11,161 bases of DNA from Candidatus Wolframiiraptor sinensis (lineage in GTDB: Archaea; Thermoproteota; Nitrososphaeria_A; Caldarchaeales; Wolframiiraptoraceae): positions 1 through 11,161 of the forward strand of contig JALNKA010000024.1 of assembly GCA_023261815.1 (NCBI GenBank). The letters are read 5' to 3'. Shown here in pieces: positions 1 to 10,077 of this stretch (position 1 is its first letter; each line of letters opens with the position of its first letter). A program made the translations under genes and the position numbers. The notes below the pieces were generated by a model. That model searched no databases and was not told where the DNA came from. It saw nothing but the letters and a program-made list of their open reading frames with translations.

Positions 1-254
1 CGCAGGAATTCTATTTCCGCTTTAAACCACTCGGGGAAGCGCTCTTTAATGTCGAGAAGAATGTCGGAGACGTCGTGAACCTTTGGATAATCTATTCCAA
101 CGGCCTTCAGGACCGCTTTTAGTGATAGCTCGACGCATTCTTGGCTTAGTCTCACAGCGTAGGGATAGTTGCCTTCCGCAAGGGCATCCTTGGCGTCTTT
201 AAGCCTCGCTTCAGCCTGCCTTAGATATGATTTGGCGATTTTAAGTAGCTGCAA
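1..254 (-). CDS. HEPN domain protein (toxin of MNT-HEPN pair), 3' end runs off the window
   Basis: Not in the ORF track. Manual translation from TTG at 254: LQLLKIAKSYLRQAEARLKDAKDALAEGNYPYAVRLSQECVELSLKAVLKAVGIDYPKVHDVSDILL..., with the HEPN-type QxxExxLKAxL...PKxHD pattern. A GGTGA RBS (264-260) lies 5 nt upstream and the gene overlaps the MNT stop. Confidence 0.88.
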   Translation of the reverse strand, partial: MQLLKIAKSYLRQAEARLKDAKDALAEGNYPYAVRLSQECVELSLKAVLKAVGIDYPKVHDVSDILLDIKERFPEWFKAEIEFL

Positions 255-984
255 TTTTCTCACCTTGCCCATGGCTTGGCATTAGATCCCAGTACCATCT
301 TCCTCCGGTCAGCTTCACGCGCCTGGCACCCTGTTTTAACAGCTTTTCGCGGAGTTCTAGCAGTATCGTCTCGAGAAAATTGTTTTTGTCATATAGTATT
401 GCCGCTTCCTCTGTCAGGTCCAAGAAGAGGAGCGGCATTCTTCTGGCCTCATCTCTTCTCAGCGGGTAGAAGCTGATTGACGTGTATATGCCGTGTTCTC
501 TGAGCCATTCAAGCTCGCCCTCCAGCTTCCTTTCAAGATGGTATAGCTTATCCAGTCTTGATGCTAGGCTTCCCTCCAGCGAGTCCGAGATCAGCAGAAT
601 ATCGACATCGCTGTAGTTTGATGCTGTCCCACGGGCCACGGATCCGTAGACGGCAAATGATTCGAGGTCCACTGCTTTCAGGGTTACCTTTAGGCAGTCG
701 AGTATGAGCTTGAGATATCTCTCGGAGCCTATTCTCTCGACATTTTTAACGATGCCGGAGGCTAGGAGGATGAAGTTCTCTGGGTCTAGGAGTCTATAAA
801 GCCTTGGCTTCTTTCGATCAAAAATGAGTAAAATTCTCTTTGAGTGAAGCTTACTGAACGCGACTAAGAGCTTGTTATTGCTAAAGGATAAGACTTCCTT
901 GGCATCTGAAAGGGTGAATAGTTCCTGGCCAAACCTCGTATAAAGCCTTGAATAGCATTCGCCGAGCCAGGAGGGAATCCACAT
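241..984 (-). CDS. Minimal nucleotidyltransferase (MNT) antitoxin with N-terminal winged-helix-like extension
   Basis: GSVARGTASNYSDVD matches the GSX10DXD pol-beta-like MNT motif. The C-terminal GARRV..GRWYWDL is typical of archaeal MNTs. It lies directly upstream of and overlaps a HEPN gene. The first ~75 aa look like an HTH/wing (FTLSDAKEVL...AFSKLHSKRILL...RLYRL). Confidence 0.88.
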   Translation of the reverse strand: MWIPSWLGECYSRLYTRFGQELFTLSDAKEVLSFSNNKLLVAFSKLHSKRILLIFDRKKPRLYRLLDPENFILLASGIVKNVERIGSERYLKLILDCLKVTLKAVDLESFAVYGSVARGTASNYSDVDILLISDSLEGSLASRLDKLYHLERKLEGELEWLREHGIYTSISFYPLRRDEARRMPLLFLDLTEEAAILYDKNNFLETILLELREKLLKQGARRVKLTGGRWYWDLMPSHGQGEKIAAT

Positions 985-1026: not shown

Positions 1027-1211
1027 TTTTTATCAGGAAGCGCAATCCGGTATCGCCTTGGCTATTAATCCTGCACACTCTCCACAAACATCGAAAGTGA
1101 TGGTGCACCTTCATCCTCTGGATCAGGTCATGATCTGGTGATGAACCTTCCCGCATCCTAGCTGAAGTATAAGGGATTATCGTTTTTAGGTGGGGGTTCT
1201 TGAGGCTTTTC

Positions 1212-2210
1212 ATGGCAAAAGTTCTCAATGCCGGCTTTCTCTGCGTCGATTTTATTGCCGCCCAACTGCCAGCTATTCCGGGGCCCGGCGAGATTGTTTA
1301 TGCTCCGGCTGGGATTAAGCTTAGAATTGGTGGGCATCCTGCTAATGTTTCTGTTGATTTGATGCAGCTGGGTGCCGGGCGCGGTGATGTCGGGTTAGCT
1401 TGCGCGGTTGGAGATGATGTCCTCAGGGATTTCGCGGTTAGGGTCTTAGAAGAGAAGGGGATTGTCGTTTTCCTCCAAGAGGTCGAGGGCGAGGAGACCT
1501 CGAAGACTCTGACGCTTATAGTTGAGGGTGAGGATCGCCGTTTCATAAATGATCCCGGGGCGAATCAGTATCTGAGCTTCAGCCATGTTCTCGGCGTTCT
1601 AGAGAAATTCAAACCCGAGATCTTCTACATCGCATCCGGAATTCTCGGGGATTTTGATTTTAAGGTTTGGGAACTACTGAGGTATTGCTAGGAGAAAGGC
1701 ATAATCACCGTGCTTGATCTCGTTAAGCCTGTTGGAAAGAGTTGGAGTTATATCCATCCCGCTTTGAGGTTCGCCGATATCATGCACTGCAACGTGCTTG
1801 AGCTGAAGGGGCTGAGCGGGTTGGCAAGCGCTGAAGAAGGGCTTAAATGGCTTATCAATATGGGAGTTAAGCTCCCGGTAGTCAGTAATGGCGAGAAGGG
1901 AGTTATCTCGCTATGCGGGGATAAGATCGTGAGGCAACCAGCATTCAAGGTGAGCGTGGTTGATCCGTCCGGGGCTGGCGACGCGCTATGCGCTGGGATT
2001 ATTTTCAAGCTTTCGGAAACACTTCCCAGAAAGAGGTTTGAGGAAATCTCCTTGGAGGATGTTCTCGAGCTATTATTGTTTGGTCAAGCCGCTGGAGCTG
2101 CTTGCGTGGAGAAAATAGGAACTACGCCCGGTGTTACGGCTGAGAGGGTGAGAAGTCTCATCGAGGAGCAAGGTGAAAGAATACGCCGCTCAACGCTAAT
2201 TGAGGGCTGA
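1212..2210 (+). pseudogene. PfkB/ribokinase-family carbohydrate kinase interrupted by one in-frame TAG (1689-1691); nonsense allele or readthrough
   Basis: Track ORFs 1200-1691 and 1710-2210 are in the same frame. Together they give 332 codons with the N-terminal GGHPANVS..L..LG and VGDD motifs and the C-terminal DPSGAGDA anion-hole motif. The start is placed at ATG 1212, with GAGG at 1202-1205. Confidence 0.88.
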
Positions 2211-2551
2211 TGTTAGGCAGCGTGACCCGCCGGAAAACGGTTGGCTCATTAAGCTGAAACAGGAGACAAGATATTCAGGTGCGCGGTTCCGTTGTTATGG
2301 TGCAGGCAATGCGCGATTTGGCGGTAAGCTTTAGTAAATGGAAGCTCCGCTCGTGGTTCTTCTCTGCATACTTATGGGGGCCTTGGGCGCGCTTTGCCTC
2401 ATTCATGCGACTTTCTCGCTCGCATTTCCGCGTTAGAAGGTTTTTCAGCAGAAGGTGACTCGGCGTCGCAGTCCTAAATGTCGGCCCTTCTATATACGGG
2501 ATGGCCGCAAGCGGCAACGGGCGATCCTGCATCGGCTATATATTGAGAGCT

Positions 2552-2756
2552 TTACCTAAATTTTCGCGGCGGCCCGTTTAAGAGTGTGTGGTTAAAGCGC
2601 TCAAGAAGCCTCCTGTTCTTCCATGCCTCCTCCAATAGCTGCCTCAACAAGCCTGCTATCTCTCCTTGGCCCCTTTTCGAGCTGTGATGATTCGAGATGT
2701 GAGCGGCCAGCTTTGGCCATGCTGTCGAATACTTCTCCGCAGTATCTGCATGCTAG
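2552..2756 (-). pseudogene. Frameshifted C2H2 zinc-finger protein (virus/plasmid-like small protein)
   Basis: One frame reads LACRYCGEVFDSMAK (Cys codons 2750-2748, 2741-2739). Removing one base in the T run at 2712-2714 continues it as LAAHISNHHSSKRGQGEIAGLLRQLLEEAWKNRRLLER..., giving an exact C-x2-C-x3-F-x5-L-x2-H-x3-H pattern. There is no in-frame start codon. Confidence 0.65.
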
Positions 2757-3180: not shown

Positions 3181-3663
3181 ATGAAAGCCTGTCTCGACGT
3201 CTCCATTAGAAAGGGGGTCTTAGCGGCCTTCATACGCTTTCTGAGGGATAGGCTGGGCTATGTCTTCAACGTCGAGGAGGAGTTTGATAAGAGGTTCCTC
3301 CTGCAAAAATACGTCTTTCTGGCCAGATACTTTGGTCTCGACCTGGGATACGACTACTCGCTCTACATATATGGCCCCTATTCCAGGGAGCTGGCGGATG
3401 ACTATTATGAGCTGGCGGGGCAAAGGGTTCTGCCTGAAGCGGATCTGCCGAGCGGATTCGATGCCGAGGGCTTCATAGAGCTGGTGAGAGGCAGGGATGC
3501 TAGGTGGCTGGAGGTGGCCGCCAGCATATTAGCGGTCTCGAAGAGTTATCGGGATCTCCCGGAGGATGAGATATACGGCATACTCAGGATGTCTAAGCCA
3601 TGGCTAACCCGAGAATACTTCAAAGAAGTTCATGAAGCCCTAAAGAAGAAGCGGCTAATCTAG
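3181..3663 (+). CDS. YwgA/SocA-like (Panacea, DUF4065-related) putative antitoxin
   Basis: RFLLQKYVFL...LGYDYSLYIYGPYSREL matches the LQK..F/Y...GPY signature of Panacea/YwgA-like proteins, followed by a LEVAASI segment. It lies upstream of a PIN gene with a 17-nt gap. Confidence 0.75.
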   Translation: MKACLDVSIRKGVLAAFIRFLRDRLGYVFNVEEEFDKRFLLQKYVFLARYFGLDLGYDYSLYIYGPYSRELADDYYELAGQRVLPEADLPSGFDAEGFIELVRGRDARWLEVAASILAVSKSYRDLPEDEIYGILRMSKPWLTREYFKEVHEALKKKRLI

Positions 3664-3680: not shown

Positions 3681-4175
3681 ATGAGGAGTAGAGCGGAGCA
3701 ATTTTACTATCTGGACACGAATTATCTGATAAACTACCTCTCGTTTAAGCATGACTTGATAGCTAAGAGGATGTCCATCGATCGCGATGCCAGAACCATC
3801 GCGAACAGCGTGGTAAAGAGCCTCTCGCGGAGGATCAAGATACCCTTTATCGTAATATCGGAGGCGGCTGGAAAGTTCATGGAGCATGAGATAAACATCG
3901 GGATCATCGAGGTATTCGGCGATCTCGAGATCGCGTTCCTCGGAAGAGAACTCATAGCAGATTTCTCGAGCATCTTACAGGATCTCGCGGAGATGGATAG
4001 GAGGCTTGAGCCCATGGACTGTATGATAGCGGCCTTCTCCATAGCGAGCCCGGAATGCCTCGGCCTTCTCACATTCGACAGCAAGCTAATCGAGAACAGA
4101 GCGATCAAAAACATAGTTGAGGAAAAGTATCCAGGCCGAGAATTCCTAGTAACGAGCGATCCGAGGAGAAGCTAA
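3681..4175 (+). CDS. vapC: PIN-domain (VapC-like) ribonuclease toxin
   Basis: The four acidic PIN active-site positions are present: YYLDTN, VISE, PMDCMIAA and LLTFD. Confidence 0.82.
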   Translation: MRSRAEQFYYLDTNYLINYLSFKHDLIAKRMSIDRDARTIANSVVKSLSRRIKIPFIVISEAAGKFMEHEINIGIIEVFGDLEIAFLGRELIADFSSILQDLAEMDRRLEPMDCMIAAFSIASPECLGLLTFDSKLIENRAIKNIVEEKYPGREFLVTSDPRRS

Positions 4176-6727: not shown

Positions 6728-7396
6728 ATGGGCATTGATGCCGTGATCTTCGATCTCGATGGGACGATCACAGACTTCTCGCTTAGGATACTGGATGCGA
6801 GGAAGGAGTTCATTAGAAGGATCAGGAGCATGGGCGTTGATCTGGGAGCGCTCGACGAGCATAGGCCCGCCGAGATCATAATCACCTATCTCGAGAGGTT
6901 TCGCGGGATTCCGAGAGAATGCTCCAGGAGGATCTTGGATGAGTGCATGGAGCCGTATGAGCTCGAGGCGGCCGAGTCGGCTAGGCTGAGGAGCGGTGCA
7001 TCCCGCGTCCTAGAGTCTCTCAAGAGAGCTGGATACAAGATCGGCTTAGCCTCGAATAATAGCGGGAGATGCGTCGGGATCGTGCTCGATGGGCTGGGAC
7101 TTCGCGGCTTCTTCGACGCGATAGTTAGCAGGGATGATGCCATGAGGCTGAAGCCCCATGAGGAGATAGTTGTTAAGGCTATTGAGCGGTTGAATGCGCC
7201 GCCTAGGAGATCGGTTTACGCCGGGGACTCGGCCTCCGACATGATAGCTGGAAGAAGGGCTGGAGCGCGCGTAGTGGCGGTAGCTGGAGGAGCCGACTCG
7301 AGGGACAAGCTTCTCAGAAGCGGCGCGGAGTATATCGTGGATGAGCTTGATGAGCTGATCGGGGTCATAGAGGTCATTGAGGAGAGAGGCTTATAG
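6728..7396 (+). CDS. HAD-superfamily hydrolase (phosphoglycolate phosphatase-like)
   Basis: Motif I IFDLDGT, motif II ASNN, motif III KP, motif IV GDSASD. Confidence 0.93.
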   Translation: MGIDAVIFDLDGTITDFSLRILDARKEFIRRIRSMGVDLGALDEHRPAEIIITYLERFRGIPRECSRRILDECMEPYELEAAESARLRSGASRVLESLKRAGYKIGLASNNSGRCVGIVLDGLGLRGFFDAIVSRDDAMRLKPHEEIVVKAIERLNAPPRRSVYAGDSASDMIAGRRAGARVVAVAGGADSRDKLLRSGAEYIVDELDELIGVIEVIEERGL

Positions 7397-7427
7397 GTGT
7401 GGAGCGCGATTAAACAGCCGGGGCATC

Positions 7428-8969
7428 ATGGAGAAGATCGTACCTGATACGAGCGTGCTGATAAACGGGGCGCTATCGAGGCTTATCGAGGCAAGCGAGA
7501 TCGAGGACTGCGAGCTGATAATTCCACTGGCTGTCATAGACGAGCTCCAAGCGCAGGCGTCGAAGGGAAAAGACATCGGGTTGAAGGGGCTCGAGGAGAT
7601 CAGGAGAATCAGGGAAATCGCGGGAGAGAAGAATATCCGGATAAGGTTTTCGGGCGAGAGGCCCAGCCTCGATGATATAAGGCTGGCTAGAAGCGGGAGG
7701 ATAGATGCCCTGATACGCGATGTCGCGAGGGCTGAGGGAGGAGCCCTCTATACTTCGGACTACGTGCAAGCTCTCGTGGCCGAGGCCGAAGGGATTCCGG
7801 TGAAATACATAGAGCCTTATCGGAGGCCGGAGGAGCCGGCTTACAAGAAGTATCTCGGGCCGGATGTCGTGAGCCTCTATCTTAGGGATGGAATGAGGCC
7901 TCGCGCCGACGTGCTCCGGGATGGAAGGCTGGAGACCATGATACTCGACGATGAGCCATGCAATGAGAATCTGCTCAATGAGATCTTGGAGGAGGTGATG
8001 GCCGTCGCCAGGGTCAGGGAGCGCGCGGACGTGATAATGCTCAGGCCCGAGGCGGTGATCCTTGAGACGGGCGATTACAGGATAAGGATCGTGAAGCCGC
8101 CGCTCTCGGATAGGATGGAGGCCGTGATCCAGAAGAATATCTTAGATCTCGTCTCAGAGGATGCCGTCATCGAGCCCATAGTCGTGGAAGGCTCTTTGAG
8201 ACCTCGTGGAATACTCGTGCTCAACCTCGATGGAGTTTACAGCTTCCCGATCGCAGAGAAGATAGCCGAGAAGCTTCGGGAAAGAGGATTGGAGGCGAGG
8301 ATCATAGGCCGCGCTAGGAGGATCAATGCCTCCGCGCCATACTATGGCCCGCTCGATGGAGACTTGGAGAAAGCGCTGCACCTCGCGCTCTCAAGCCCAT
8401 TAGATTACATCATAATAGACGAGGTGGCGGATTCGAGAGATCTAAAGCTCGTGAAGGATGCCAGGCTCGCGGGCATCGGGGTAATAGCATTCAAGCGGTC
8501 TAAGTTGATCAACGCCGCGCTTGCATCGCTCTTAGAGGTGGTAGGCCCGGCAATCATGCCCCAAGTGATAGACGAGATGGTTCTCATGAGGTGCTCCGGC
8601 ATCTTGGAGATCTTGAGCGTCTCTGCCTCCATAAGGGCGCCGAGCGGCCTAAGCCCTGAATCCGGCATCAGGCACGTGGTGGATATTTCTCGCGCCGGAG
8701 AAAAAATCTACGAGATCTATGAGTTTGATGGGCGCCCAATAATCTCCGATGTTAGAGAGGTTCGTGAGCGGCTTAAGAAAGCCGAGAAGATCGTCGAGGA
8801 AATTCTGAGAGGTTCTGGGCTCAAGGGTGCTGAGCTTGAGGCTCTCTGGCTCGATAAGGCCGTGATCCGCGTCGCCGGGAGAAAGAGGCGAGAGTTAATG
8901 AGACTCCGGAGGAGGATCGTGGAGGAACTGGGAATTGCGGTGGAGTTTAGGGCCCATCTCGGGCGATAA
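7428..8969 (+). CDS. PINA-like protein (PIN nuclease + degenerate PilT/VirB11-type ATPase + degenerate KH domain)
   Basis: N-terminal MEKIVPDTSVLI...IDELQAQASKG...GLEEI...GERP...SGRIDALIR...LYTSDYVQALVAEAEGI is characteristic of the archaeal PIN-ATPase family, as are YGPLDGD, DYIIIDEV, RLAGIG, PQVID, RAPSG and YEIY further on. The start was moved from 7377 to ATG 7428. Confidence 0.85.
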   Translation: MEKIVPDTSVLINGALSRLIEASEIEDCELIIPLAVIDELQAQASKGKDIGLKGLEEIRRIREIAGEKNIRIRFSGERPSLDDIRLARSGRIDALIRDVARAEGGALYTSDYVQALVAEAEGIPVKYIEPYRRPEEPAYKKYLGPDVVSLYLRDGMRPRADVLRDGRLETMILDDEPCNENLLNEILEEVMAVARVRERADVIMLRPEAVILETGDYRIRIVKPPLSDRMEAVIQKNILDLVSEDAVIEPIVVEGSLRPRGILVLNLDGVYSFPIAEKIAEKLRERGLEARIIGRARRINASAPYYGPLDGDLEKALHLALSSPLDYIIIDEVADSRDLKLVKDARLAGIGVIAFKRSKLINAALASLLEVVGPAIMPQVIDEMVLMRCSGILEILSVSASIRAPSGLSPESGIRHVVDISRAGEKIYEIYEFDGRPIISDVREVRERLKKAEKIVEEILRGSGLKGAELEALWLDKAVIRVAGRKRRELMRLRRRIVEELGIAVEFRAHLGR

Positions 8970-9004
8970 GCTTTTTACTTAGAGCCATTTTCCTGCCGAC
9001 GCGG

Positions 9005-9412
9005 ATGAGCTCTAGGAGACGGAGCTTCTCGGAGAAGCTCATCGCGCGGCTTAGATCTGAGACCACCAATACGATAATCGTCGCCATAATCCTGGCGCTC
9101 ACGATCGCGTTTCTCAGCGGCGCGGTATACTCTCTAGTCACAGACCGCCCAATCTCGATAATATTCCTCCCTGATGGGAGCATGCGGGTCTTCCTCTGGG
9201 ATATGAGGTGGCAGACTCACGCCGAGACCATAGTCATCTTCATCTATTATGCTCTCGGGGCGGGAGGACTCCTCCTTTATGCTCGAGCAATCCTAAGGCC
9301 ATCAGACCCCAGAACAACGAAGTACATGCTCTTCTTCAGCTTCCTCCTCCTACTGCTCTCATTCCTCGGGATGTATAGCGGGTATCTAGAGAAGTTCGCT
9401 AGGCCATATTAG
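9005..9412 (+). CDS. 3-TM membrane protein, OST3/OST6/DC2(OSTC)-like
   Basis: Three hydrophobic helices. FLSGAVY...P...G...F....QTHAETIV...GAGGLLL...LLSF...EKFARPY parallels the membrane domain of eukaryotic OST3/OST6 and DC2 (from my recollection of the family). Confidence 0.7.
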   Translation: MSSRRRSFSEKLIARLRSETTNTIIVAIILALTIAFLSGAVYSLVTDRPISIIFLPDGSMRVFLWDMRWQTHAETIVIFIYYALGAGGLLLYARAILRPSDPRTTKYMLFFSFLLLLLSFLGMYSGYLEKFARPY

Positions 9413-10077
9413 GGCGGCTGAGCTGGGGCTAGGCCGAAGCCCGTTATCTTGTAAGTTGTAGCCTCCGCTCTTTCCGGCTTCTCGATCAATATCCTGCCCA
9501 GCCTAGTCTTTGGATCCATCTCGAGCCTGAGAACCGTGTCCGACCAGTATACCAGGATTCTCTGGGCGACCGCTCTGGCCTCGCCCCGATCCGGGATGTC
9601 GTGAACCTGGCCCACAATCATGACCGCGAGACCGTTTCTCAGGGCGGCCTCTTTGAGCGCCGCAACATGGAATGCCAGCCGCCTGTAAACCCGCATATCA
9701 AGCCCGATGTCGCCCGAGAGCTCGAGCCTATGAAGAGCCGTGAAGTCGTCAAAGACCAGCAAACTGGCCGGAGGCCTAGAATCATGTATGCCGAGAATCG
9801 CCCTCTCCTGTGCGCTGAAGCTCTCGACGGATAGTATGTACAGCTTATCCTCATCTCCCCCGAGAGCCCTCATTATCTGCGAGATTCTGGCCGGGTGAAG
9901 CCTGCCGGAGCAGTCGACGTAGGCGGCTGGAAGGCTCCTCGTCGCGAGGGCGCACATCATGAGGGCGAGGCTCGTCTTCCCAGACTTCTCCTCGCCATAA
10001 ACCAGGGTTAAGGTTCCTGTCGCAACCCCTCCTCCCAGCCTCCTATCAAGCGCCGGTAAGCCTGTCGAAAACCTCAT
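9409..10077 (-). CDS. radB: RadB-like RecA-superfamily ATPase
   Basis: STGLPALDRRLGGG, Walker A GEEKSGKT, YVD, LLVFDD Walker B, GQV and SDTVLRL. At 222 aa it lacks the RadA N-terminal domain. Its stop overlaps the convergent gene's stop by 4 nt (TTAG, 9409-9412). Confidence 0.8.
   Translation of the reverse strand: MRFSTGLPALDRRLGGGVATGTLTLVYGEEKSGKTSLALMMCALATRSLPAAYVDCSGRLHPARISQIMRALGGDEDKLYILSVESFSAQERAILGIHDSRPPASLLVFDDFTALHRLELSGDIGLDMRVYRRLAFHVAALKEAALRNGLAVMIVGQVHDIPDRGEARAVAQRILVYWSDTVLRLEMDPKTRLGRILIEKPERAEATTYKITGFGLAPAQPP

What the first reader, a model, noticed from the sequence alone, without database searches (positions are those of the whole stretch)
7428..8969. PINA-like protein with intact PIN nuclease but dead ATPase and KH motifs (pseudo-ATPase)
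Seen: the PIN domain keeps all four acidic residues (PDTS, IDEL, RIDA, TSD). Where the family has Walker A (GxPGxGK[ST]) the sequence reads RGILVLNLDGVYSF (8205-8246). Walker B YIIIDE survives (8406-8423), the GVVH His is replaced (GVIAFKRS), and the C-terminal KH-like segment lacks the GxxG loop. The frame is uninterrupted for 513 aa. Established: archaeal PINA is a hexameric ATPase implicated in Holliday-junction branch migration with Hjc/Hjm. Inference: a motor-less paralog acting as a nuclease scaffold or as a regulatory subunit of canonical PINA. It lies two genes from a RadB-like recombination mediator.
Basis: partly seen in the sequence, partly recalled or inferred. Interest (0 to 1): 0.7.

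Follow-up and report, generated by a model that had tools for sequence, protein, structure and literature searches.

The report
PIN nuclease with dead ATPase ring
This archaeal gene descends from a PIN-nuclease/motor-ATPase/KH protein; its ATP-using motifs and RNA/DNA-binding tail have been lost, while the nuclease domain is tightly conserved and a second, intact motor paralog remains in the genome.

Summary
ORF 7428-8969(+) is an intact 513-aa protein with the PINA fold. All four PIN acidic residues are present. There is no Walker A anywhere, the Asp box and His box are lost, the Walker B DE survives, and the KH-like tail lacks GxxG.

It is not a new duplicate of SisPINA. By synteny (thiolase-HAD-X-membrane protein-RadB-like) and by tree, it is the ortholog of the long, MJ1533/PRK13764-type PIN-ATPase-KH paralog. 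That paralog degenerated in two of the five genera of one Nitrososphaerota family, in 17 of 35 genomes. Those genomes keep a short SisPINA-like paralog with perfect motifs, found in 13 of the 17 plus a canonical-scoring fragment in one more; the other three are 70-82% complete. In this genome it lies about 4 kb from hjc.

The loss is conserved, not random. All 50 clade sequences lack the P-loop Lys and carry their own conserved replacement motifs. In the dead core, dN/dS is 0.08-0.34, against 0.00-0.03 in active paralogs. In the PIN domain it stays at 0.01-0.09.

Best reading: a motor-less PIN nuclease on a retained ring-ATPase scaffold. Co-assembly with the short PINA is untested. This is a new variant of a known kind, of moderate interest.

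The parts
7428..8969 (+). Whole gene: PIN / pseudo-ATPase / KH-like protein, 513 aa plus stop (P0001)
   Evidence: Intact frame. PRK13764 290 bits, below the 340 cut-off; PINA model 127 bits, below 800. AF2 model pLDDT 88.5. Foldseek top hits are SisPINA 5yww/5f4h, E 1e-34 to 1e-37.
7428..7817 (+). PIN nuclease domain (aa 1-130). Acidic residues: D7 (7446-7448), E39 (7542-7544), D93 (7704-7706), D111 (7758-7760).
   Evidence: Pfam PIN 26 bits, cut-off 23.6. MJ1533 PIN 3i8o: E 1.2e-31 by sequence and TM 0.89 on the target. All four acids are invariant in the 28 clade members. dN/dS 0.01-0.09.
7818..8162 (+). C1 / N-terminal domain of the PilT-like ATPase module (aa 131-245), with the invariant YR...PP[FL]SD..E motif
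   Evidence: Aligned to the corresponding part of SisPINA. R218, P224, P225, S227, D228 and E231 are invariant. dN/dS 0.08-0.31. The domain boundaries are my own estimate from the alignment.
8163..8627 (+). Degenerate RecA-like ATPase core (aa 246-400)
   Evidence: Pfam T2SSE/AAA families are not detected, unlike in the canonical relatives. The fold is predicted confidently, with block pLDDT mostly 84-95. dN/dS 0.08-0.34, against 0.00-0.03 in active paralogs.
8205..8246 (+). Former Walker A: RGILVLNLDGVYSF in place of EGILIAGPPGSGKTTF
   Evidence: All 50 clade sequences lack the GK.
8301..8324 (+). Former Asp box: IIGRARRI in place of TLESPRDL
8403..8423 (+). Surviving Walker B-like strand: DYIIIDE
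   Evidence: The motif is kept as hhhhDE (EE or DD in a few rows) in the g1 sub-clade and changed to ND in the g4 sub-clade.
8478..8501 (+). Former His box: GVIAFKRS in place of GVVHAS
8628..8750 (+). C3-like beta region (aa 401-441), with invariant P405, G407 and E429
8751..8966 (+). KH-like tail (aa 442-513) without GxxG. The 4-residue deletion lies next to about 8871-8915. The ~90-aa C-terminal domain of the long type is absent.
   Evidence: alignment. No Pfam KH_1 hit here, whereas P0048 and P0089 have one. The tail is further lost or disrupted in some relatives.
6728..7396 (+). HAD-family phosphatase gene, 31 nt upstream on the same strand. It is fused to the long paralog in a related family.
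   Evidence: Pfam HAD_2 100 bits. It sits directly upstream in 13 of 14 fetched relatives' loci that have upstream flank. Fusions: frames of 820-842 aa and P0089 with HAD+PIN+T2SSE+KH.
9005..9412 (+). Small membrane protein (weak OST3/OST6-like match), conserved downstream neighbour
   Evidence: Pfam 28.7 bits. Conserved position.
9409..10077 (-). RadB-like RadA paralog with intact Walker A (GEEKSGKTS), convergent with the gene under study
   Evidence: Present in 14 of 14 fetched relatives' loci that have downstream flank. It also lies next to the canonical long paralog in L007, L008 and L014.

Best explanation
The gene encodes a pseudo-ATPase derivative of the archaeal long PIN-ATPase-KH protein (MJ1533/PRK13764 type).

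In the common ancestor of two sister genera, this protein lost its ability to bind and hydrolyse ATP. The Walker A Lys/Thr, the Asp box and the His box were replaced. It also lost the GxxG nucleic-acid-binding loop of the KH domain and the C-terminal domain. The PilT-like two-domain fold and a fully intact PIN active site were kept.

It most likely acts as a metal-dependent PIN endonuclease in a recombination/repair or RNA-processing context. That context is shared with the co-located HAD phosphatase and the RadB-like protein. The dead ATPase module would serve only as an oligomerisation or partner-binding scaffold.

The motor function in these genomes is left to the retained short SisPINA-like paralog.

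Shown: the motif losses, their conservation, orthology to the long type, purifying selection on every domain, and the presence of the active paralog. Inferred: absence of ATP binding, nuclease activity, oligomeric state, substrate and pathway.
For: Motifs:
- There is no P-loop anywhere in the protein or in other frames.
- Walker A, the Asp box, the His box and the KH GxxG are replaced or deleted.
- Pfam finds only PIN. Canonical relatives give T2SSE plus KH_1.

Conserved loss:
- 50 of the 163 aligned homologs lack the Walker A GK.
- All 50 belong to one clade and carry their own conserved replacement motifs: G[IV]L..N.[DE]..Y..P[IL] in one sub-clade and IG.PESG.LEL in the other.

Orthology:
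- The slot thiolase-HAD-X-membrane protein-RadB-like holds the degenerate gene in g1 and g4.
- Parts of the same gene order surround the canonical long gene: membrane protein and RadB-like downstream in g2 (L007, L008) and g5 (L014); thiolase and HAD upstream in g11 (L012).
- The degenerate clade is monophyletic (SH-aLRT 100) and nested among the family's long-type sequences.
- Each sub-clade lands there when the other is left out.

Selection:
- dN/dS in the PIN domain is 0.01-0.09, and in the ATPase core 0.08-0.34 (13 pairs).
- In active paralogs the core gives 0.00-0.03.
- For the same genome pairs, core dN is 0.222 against 0.018 (G000-G002) and 0.146 against 0.011 (G020-G016). PIN dN is no higher than in the short paralog.

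Sequence scores:
- The score to SisPINA falls from 407 bits (canonical long P0048) to 117 bits.
- The score to the MJ1533 PIN domain stays level, at 106 against 114 bits.

Fold:
- The fold is retained: pLDDT 88.5, and 5f4h matches at TM 0.60-0.71.

Active paralog:
- It lies at C10:41221-42753 and carries GPPGMGKST, ESPRDLQ, FDEIR and GVIHAT.
- It scores 440 bits to 5f4h and sits about 4 kb from hjc.
Against: - No biochemical data exist for this protein or for any long-type member. PIN activity is inferred only from conserved acidic residues.
- The Walker B DE pair is kept in the window's sub-clade. dN/dS of the core is far below 1. The pocket region may therefore still have a function, such as ligand binding or an interface.
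- Many dS values are near saturation. The dN contrasts are more reliable than the ratios.
- The trees used the quick search and carry a long-branch warning. A single origin of the two sub-clades is therefore likely but not proven.
- Oligomerisation is unverified.
- Transcription is not shown. One search found one contig from an RNA library spanning convergent genes and 4 raw reads; this may be DNA carry-over.
Confidence: 0.7

Rival explanations
1. The dead protein is an obligate partner of the short SisPINA-like paralog. It would form mixed rings or a stacked complex, supplying a competent PIN nuclease to the only remaining motor. This would be a natural split into a motor subunit and a nuclease subunit.
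For: - No canonical long copy is seen in any genome with the degenerate copy (0 of 17).
- A short active paralog is found in 13 of those 17 (10 of 14 g1 and 3 of 3 g4), and G012 adds a canonical-scoring fragment. The three genomes with none (G001, G006, G010) are 70-82% complete.
- The N-terminal domain of the short paralog is not recognised as PIN by Pfam at E<=0.001 and does not hit the MJ1533 PIN. In the SisPINA alignment the third acidic position is Asn.
- Other genera carry only the long type (g3, 7 of 7) or only the short type (g7, 3 of 3). This suggests overlapping motor function.
Against: - The two paralogs are only about 26% identical. They coexist as two intact ATPases in most related genera, presumably as separate homo-oligomers.
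- They are not neighbours: they lie on contigs C2 and C10.
- No interaction test succeeded.
Confidence: 0.17
2. The ATPase-like module still binds a nucleotide or another small ligand without hydrolysis. It would work as a sensor or switch that gates the PIN nuclease.
For: - Walker B DE is retained in the window's sub-clade.
- The replacement motifs are themselves conserved (N.[DE]..Y and G[RHY][AST][RK]R).
- Core dN/dS of 0.08-0.34 indicates constraint.
Against: - The glycine-rich loop, Lys and Thr of Walker A are all gone, as are the Asp-box Glu/Asp and the His-box His.
- The sister sub-clade has also lost the DE, which reads ND.
- The constraint can be explained by folding and interfaces alone.
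Confidence: 0.1
3. The PIN site is also non-catalytic in practice. The protein would be purely an adaptor or scaffold, for example recruiting the RadB-like protein, the HAD phosphatase or Hjc.
For: - Gene order with HAD and the RadB-like gene is strongly conserved.
- In SisPINA the KH tail mediates protein contacts (PMC6061704, passages read).
Against: - All four acidic residues are invariant in the 28 sequences of A2.
- The PIN domain is the most constrained part of the protein. This is the pattern expected for a working active site.
- The KH-like tail is dispensable in several relatives.
Confidence: 0.1
4. It is a slowly decaying pseudogene with no function.
For: - It evolves about 3-4 times faster than the short paralog by tree path length.
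- C-terminal truncations or disruptions occur in some relatives.
Against: - Open full-length frames persist across two genera down to 38% identity.
- dN/dS is 0.09-0.20 over the whole gene.
- The replacement motifs are conserved.
Confidence: 0.03

Closest known systems
Long archaeal PIN-ATPase-KH protein
   Same: - The PIN domain is nearly identical. The motifs PDTS, IDELQAQASKG, ERPSLEDIKLARSGRIDALIRD and LYTSDYVQALVAEAEG are shared.
- It hits the solved MJ1533 PIN domain at E 1.2e-31.
- The YGPLxGDxEKT motif is shared.
- It occupies the same genomic slot and is nested inside this family in the tree.
   Different: - It scores 290 bits, below the 340-bit cut-off.
- It lacks the Walker A Lys/Thr, the Asp box, the His box, the KH GxxG and the ~90-aa C-terminal domain.
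- It gives no Pfam T2SSE or KH_1 hit.
- The long type itself has no experimentally shown function. It is predicted to act in DNA/RNA repair or RNA metabolism (PMC4858521, passage read).
SisPINA (Sulfolobus islandicus PINA; PDB 5f4h, 5yww), the Holliday-junction branch-migration ATPase
   Same: - Same domain order: PIN-C1-C2-C3-KH-like.
- Similar length, about 505-513 aa.
- Best structural match.
- Its KH also lacks GxxG (PMC6061704).
   Different: - Only 117 bits and about 20-23% identity.
- 127 bits to the PINA model, against a cut-off of 800.
- The ATPase motifs are dead.
- The PIN domain is of the MJ1533 type.
- The genome's real SisPINA-like gene is the other paralog, at 440 bits to 5f4h.
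- The SisPINA activities (ATPase, helicase, HJ migration, Hjc/Hjm binding) cannot be assumed.
PilT/VirB11/CpaF-type secretion ATPases (FtsK-HerA-related ring ATPases)
   Same: The two-domain fold of the ATPase module is recovered after the PINA hits (CpaF, PilT, PilB, HP0525; E 1e-10 to 1e-13).
   Different: - Of the four signature motifs, only the Walker B sequence survives. The motif set (Walker A, Asp box, Walker B, His box) is recalled from the literature, not taken from a call.
- The protein is fused to a PIN domain.
- There is no secretion-system gene context.

Membership tests
PINA sensu stricto (NCBIfam NF053733, SisPINA) | Reaches the curated model cut-off (800 bits) | tested here: not met
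   127 bits. The genome's short paralog gives 507 bits and the canonical long P0048 gives 476 bits; both are also below the cut-off.
PINA sensu stricto (NCBIfam NF053733, SisPINA) | Functional Walker A/B ATPase | tested here: not met
   No P-loop anywhere. The Walker A position reads LNLDGVYSF. Only the sequence was tested; the enzyme was not assayed.
PINA sensu stricto (NCBIfam NF053733, SisPINA) | PIN-C1-C2-C3-KH architecture and fold | tested here: met
   AF2 model pLDDT 88.5. Foldseek 5f4h chains: E 1e-34 to 3e-35, TM 0.60-0.71.
PINA sensu stricto (NCBIfam NF053733, SisPINA) | Hexameric ring; HJ branch migration; binding of Hjc and Hjm | not testable with these tools
   The homodimer prediction gave no verdict. 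Biochemistry is needed.
Long PIN-ATPase-KH (NCBIfam NF010335 PRK13764, MJ1533 type) | Reaches the curated model cut-off (340 bits) | tested here: not met
   290 bits. Other clade members score 260-395 bits and canonical long copies 718-822 bits.
Long PIN-ATPase-KH (NCBIfam NF010335 PRK13764, MJ1533 type) | MJ1533-type PIN domain with four acidic residues | tested here: met
   3i8o at E 1.2e-31. D7, E39, D93 and D111 are conserved.
Long PIN-ATPase-KH (NCBIfam NF010335 PRK13764, MJ1533 type) | T2SSE-type ATPase domain detectable, with intact motifs | tested here: not met
   No PF00437 hit, whereas P0048 and P0089 have one. Motifs are lost.
Long PIN-ATPase-KH (NCBIfam NF010335 PRK13764, MJ1533 type) | KH domain with GxxG, plus the C-terminal extension | tested here: not met
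   A 4-residue deletion at the GxxG, and the last ~90 aa are absent. No KH_1 hit.
Long PIN-ATPase-KH (NCBIfam NF010335 PRK13764, MJ1533 type) | Descent (orthology) from the family | tested here: met
   Same syntenic slot. Nested in the long-type clade of the same taxonomic family.
PIN domain nucleases (Pfam PF01850) | Pfam gathering score and the conserved acidic quartet | tested here: met
   26.0 bits against a cut-off of 23.6. The acids are invariant in A2.
PIN domain nucleases (Pfam PF01850) | Metal-dependent nuclease activity | not testable with these tools
   Needs an enzyme assay.
PilT/VirB11-like secretion ATPase superfamily | Walker A, Asp box, Walker B and His box (motif set recalled from the literature) | tested here: not met
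   Only the Walker B sequence is kept. The fold is still recognised.

The most novel reading that the evidence does not exclude
After the long paralog's motor died, the cell was left with a division of labour. The short PINA keeps the motor but has an atypical PIN domain. The ex-long protein keeps a pristine PIN nuclease but has no motor and no KH. The two would work as one heteromeric machine, either as mixed or stacked rings or as a hand-off complex, in a recombination/repair module. That module would also involve the co-located HAD phosphatase and the RadB-like protein. This would be a naturally evolved motor/nuclease split within the PINA family. It would give a handle on what the uncharacterised PIN domain of these near-universal archaeal proteins does.
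Probability: 0.15. Interest if true: 0.75.

Novelty: new variant of a known kind. Interest (0 to 1): 0.5.

Why it matters
PIN-ATPase(-KH) proteins are found in nearly all archaea. Only the short SisPINA has been studied biochemically, and the role of the PIN domain is unknown.

This lineage is a natural separation-of-function mutant. The ATPase, the KH loop and the C-terminal domain have been discarded, yet the PIN domain remains the most constrained part of the protein. That argues that the PIN domain has an ATP-independent function of its own.

The pattern across genera (long only, short only, both, or dead long plus short) suggests that the two paralogs share motor function. The conserved HAD and RadB-like neighbours, and the HAD fusions, point to testable partners.

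This is a modest but clean case of pseudoenzyme evolution in an archaeal genome-maintenance family. I found no description of it in the searchable literature.

Tried and rejected
- **Homodimer prediction.** I ran residues 131-513 with 2 copies and alignment A2. The verdict was 'no answer' (score 0.00, controls not run). It says nothing about oligomerisation either way.
- **Expression.**
  - One RNA-library run (X1, Logan contigs) holds a 2420-nt contig covering 7322-9741. It has 52 differences and no gaps.
  - That contig spans convergent genes, and the tool warns that DNA can be present.
  - X4 gave 4 reads at 95-99% likeness, with first mates on both strands. X2 and X3 gave none, with about 3% of each run read.
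  - I do not count this as evidence of transcription.
  - Of the 35 listed differences inside the ORF, 20 are synonymous and 15 are not. Only 1 of the 15 lies in the PIN domain. 24 further differences were not shown by the tool.
- **P-loop elsewhere.** I looked for an intact P-loop in the rest of the protein and in other frames and found none.
- **Independent Walker A losses elsewhere.**
  - A profile search of 1.84 billion representatives gave 656 hits, of which the best 150 are listed.
  - The degenerate clade is represented by just two 50% clusters (P0018 at 830 bits, P0035 at 769 bits), followed by a drop to 521 bits.
  - Of the other 148, 44 failed a strict P-loop regular expression.
  - Five of the 44 are intein-split right after GK (P0132, P0136, P0141, P0144, P0230), and P0258 has GGGKT.
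  - The remaining 38 are 120-329 aa long and look like fragments. I did not inspect all of them.
- **SisPINA R206.** I considered using the invariance of R218 (aligned to SisPINA R206) as evidence for a kept hexamer interface. I dropped it because the paper describes 5F4H as an R206A hexamer, and only the triple mutant is monomeric.
- **Model coordinates.** These are not available to scripts. I could not check whether the former nucleotide pocket is filled.
Full report
**1.

Positions 7428-8969(+) translate to an uninterrupted 513-aa protein, P0001.
- Pfam recognises only a PIN domain (26 bits, cut-off 23.6).
- NCBIfam gives 290 bits to PRK13764 (cut-off 340) and 127 bits to the PINA model (cut-off 800).
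- Against solved structures, the protein aligns end to end with SisPINA 5f4h/5yww (E 1e-32). Its first 130 residues match the MJ1533 PIN domain 3i8o (E 1e-31).
- In that alignment the P-loop of SisPINA faces LNLDGVYSFP.
- The protein holds no GK[ST], not even a K[ST] dipeptide. No P-loop is encoded in any frame of 7301-9000.

**2. Two paralog types exist, and this genome keeps an active one.**

The window's assembly is 1.18 Mb in 33 contigs and 92% complete. The best homolog, 98% identical, is named by its source as a Nitrososphaerota archaeon MAG.
- A second family member lies at C10:41221-42753. It is a 508-aa protein with GPPGMGKST, ESPRDLQ, FDEIR and GVIHAT.
- This second copy scores 574 bits to PRK13764 and 440 bits to SisPINA 5f4h, with no hit to the MJ1533 PIN. 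It lies about 4 kb from hjc.

Across 41 genomes of the order, most carry two copies. One is a long copy of about 600 aa (718-822 bits; PIN + T2SSE + KH_1 + a C-terminal domain). The other is a short SisPINA-like copy of about 510 aa (530-631 bits).

**3. The gene is the degenerate ortholog of the long type.**

I fetched 16 loci from the window's genus (g1) and from genus g4.
- The order thiolase - HAD - degenerate gene - small membrane protein - RadB-like (opposite strand) recurs.
- HAD is directly upstream in 13 of 14 loci with upstream flank. RadB-like is downstream in 14 of 14 loci with downstream flank.
- Parts of the same gene order surround the canonical long gene. In g2 (L007, L008) and g5 (L014) the membrane protein and the RadB-like gene follow it. 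In g11 (L012) thiolase and HAD precede it. In g8 the HAD is fused to it (frames of 820-842 aa).

A tree of 61 sequences (quick IQ-TREE, LG+C20) was rooted on the short paralogs.
- It puts all 24 degenerate sequences in one clade (SH-aLRT 100, stem 0.58).
- That clade sits inside the family's long-type sequences, next to g2.
- The program warned that two long branches meet. I therefore rebuilt the tree with each sub-clade left out in turn.
- Without g1, the g4 sub-clade still falls in the g2+g5 long-type clade (SH-aLRT 95).
- Without g4, the g1 sub-clade is sister to the g2 long type (SH-aLRT 100).
- The short-paralog subtree also makes g1 and g4 sisters (99).

Both sub-clades share the same 4-residue KH deletion and the same C-terminal truncation. 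A single origin is the simplest reading, but it is not proven.

**4. The loss is conserved, not random.**

163 homologs were aligned.
- 50 of them lack GK at the Walker A position, and all 50 are in this clade. Some locus proteins duplicate P-ids.
- The g1 sub-clade reads G[IV]L..N.[DE]..Y..P[IL] at Walker A and I.G[RHY][AST][RK]R at the Asp box. It keeps an hhhhDE Walker B (EE or DD in a few rows) and has GV[IV]AF at the His box.
- The g4 sub-clade reads IG.PESG.LEL, VE[YF]G[RKG][MV]L, ND at Walker B, and GIIYA.
- None gives a Pfam T2SSE or KH_1 hit (precomputed domains; for three members).
- By contrast, the PIN segment is almost identical to that of the canonical long proteins. D7, E39, D93 and D111 are invariant in the 28 clade sequences of A2.

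**5. Selection (my own Nei-Gojobori script).**

| Protein (pairs) | PIN dN/dS | ATPase core dN/dS |
|---|---|---|
| Degenerate (13 pairs) | 0.01-0.09 (12 computable) | 0.08-0.34 |
| Canonical long (7 pairs) | 0.04-0.06 (5 computable) | 0.02-0.03 (4 computable) |
| Short (7 pairs) | 0.00-0.11 (5 computable) | 0.00-0.03 (5 computable) |

In the degenerate protein the KH-like tail gives 0.11-0.46 and the whole gene 0.09-0.20.

Many dS values are near saturation, so the same-genome dN contrast is safer.
- For G000-G002, core dN is 0.222 (degenerate) against 0.018 (short).
- For G020-G016, it is 0.146 against 0.011.
- PIN dN is 0.056 against 0.076, and 0.032 against 0.059, for the same pairs.

The usual order of constraint is therefore inverted. 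The dead core is more than ten-fold relaxed yet still under purifying selection, and the PIN domain is as constrained as ever.

The KH-like tail is being shed in some lineages.
- In G002 it is interrupted by stops and an insertion.
- In G008 the frame ends about residue 440 and only a short match to the region remains.
- Several metagenome clusters are only 443-448 aa long.

**6. Structure.**

AlphaFold2 with alignment A1 gives pLDDT 88.5 and pTM 0.74. Foldseek returns, in order:
- SisPINA (5yww, 5f4h; E 1e-34 to 1e-37; TM 0.60-0.71 for the 5f4h chains);
- the MJ1533 PIN (TM 0.89 on the target);
- CpaF, PilT, PilB and VirB11 ATPases.

The fold of the ATPase module is thus predicted to be kept.

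**7. Distribution.**

In the whole taxonomic family held by the tool (35 genomes, 5 genera), the degenerate form is present in all 14 g1 and all 3 g4 genomes.
- Some copies are cut by contig ends.
- The 18 genomes of g2, g5 and g3 have hits in the score range of the canonical long type (545-626 bits to the clade profile). The newly added ones were not inspected residue by residue.

No g1 or g4 genome shows a canonical long copy.
- A short active copy was found in 10 of 14 g1 genomes, plus a canonical-scoring fragment in G012, and in 3 of 3 g4 genomes.
- The three g1 genomes without one are 70-82% complete.

Elsewhere, g3 has only the long type (7 of 7, 93-99% complete) and g7 only the short type (3 of 3).

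In a profile search of 1.84 billion representatives, the clade collapses to two 50% clusters. These score 830 and 769 bits, before a drop to 521 bits.

**8. Mechanism.**

Shown:
- the signature residues of ATP binding and hydrolysis are absent;
- the KH GxxG and the C-terminal domain are gone;
- the PIN catalytic quartet is intact and strongly constrained;
- the rest of the protein is constrained enough to remain folded and useful.

Inferred:
- the protein is a metal-dependent PIN nuclease whose PilT-like module now serves as a scaffold or interaction platform;
- the short SisPINA-like paralog provides the only motor of this family in these cells.

The neighbourhood and the HAD fusions suggest a nucleic-acid repair or recombination setting. 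However, the long type has no experimentally shown function. Makarova et al. predict DNA/RNA repair or RNA metabolism (PMC4858521, passage read).

Rival readings are listed with their tests in the Rival explanations section. They are co-assembly with the short PINA, a ligand-sensing pocket, a pure adaptor role, and a pseudogene.

**9. Literature.**

| Paper | What I read | Content used |
|---|---|---|
| PMC6061704 | passages | SisPINA domain names; KH without GxxG; KH contacts with Hjm/Hjc; R206A hexamer and monomeric triple mutant |
| PMC8775617 | passages | pina is not essential in S. acidocaldarius; deletion gives cold sensitivity; gene numbers show pina beside hjc |
| PMC4858521 | one passage | prediction for the MJ1533-like family |

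Five full-text searches found no description of an ATPase-dead member. The original 2017 SisPINA paper was not read. What I say about it comes from the papers above.

**10. Caveats.**
- The trees are quick searches with long branches.
- dS is partly saturated.
- The domain borders are my own estimate.
- PIN activity, oligomeric state, partners and expression are untested. The complex prediction gave no verdict, and the RNA-library evidence is not conclusive.

Noticed in passing
window 6728-7396 (+); L015-L019; P0074, P0089-P0092, P0121: A HAD-family phosphatase gene sits 31 nt upstream of the PIN gene here and in most relatives. In a related family (g8, named Caldarchaeum sp. by sources) it is fused to the N-terminus of the canonical long PIN-ATPase-KH protein, giving frames of 816-842 aa. 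This Rosetta-stone link suggests the phosphatase and the PIN-ATPase work together.
   Followed up: partly
window 1200-1691 and 1710-2210 (+): A PfkB-family sugar kinase is split into N- and C-terminal halves by a single in-frame TAG at 1689-1691. Both halves are in the same frame. It could be a pseudogene, an assembly error or a read-through. This was not resolved.
   Followed up: no
P0132, P0133, P0136, P0141, P0144, P0230: Several long homologs from the representative search are 695-1323 aa long and read GKC... straight after the Walker A Gly-Lys, with the match split into two stretches. This is the signature of an intein inserted in the P-loop of this family.
   Followed up: partly
window 3181-3663 (+) and 3681-4175 (+): Two adjacent same-strand ORFs of 160 and 164 aa. 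The second gives a weak PIN-domain match (E 0.0035, below the cut-off). The first has no family. This may be a VapC-like toxin with an unrecognised partner.
   Followed up: no
L046 (G002) about 2213-2632 (-); L048 (G008); P0010, P0017, P0019, P0028: The KH-like tail of the degenerate protein is itself being lost in some lineages. In G002 it is interrupted by stops and an insertion of about 30 codons. In G008 the frame ends about residue 440 and only a short match remains. Four metagenome clusters are 443-448 aa long.
   Followed up: partly
G000:C10:41221-42753 (L001) and C10:46937-47233 (L053): The genome's active short PINA-like gene lies about 4 kb from the Holliday-junction resolvase gene hjc. 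This recalls the adjacent pina/hjc gene numbers in Sulfolobus acidocaldarius (PMC8775617).
   Followed up: partly
G044:C46:52816-54171 and G045:C23:7394-8728: Two g5 genomes show long-type hits in open frames of only 465 aa, matching profile positions 2-448. These could be C-terminally truncated canonical copies or assembly breaks. They were not inspected.
   Followed up: no
window 241-984 (-): A 247-aa ORF with a nucleotidyltransferase (NTP_transf_2/Polbeta) domain. It may be a MNT-type toxin-antitoxin or defence-related component. No partner was looked for.
   Followed up: no
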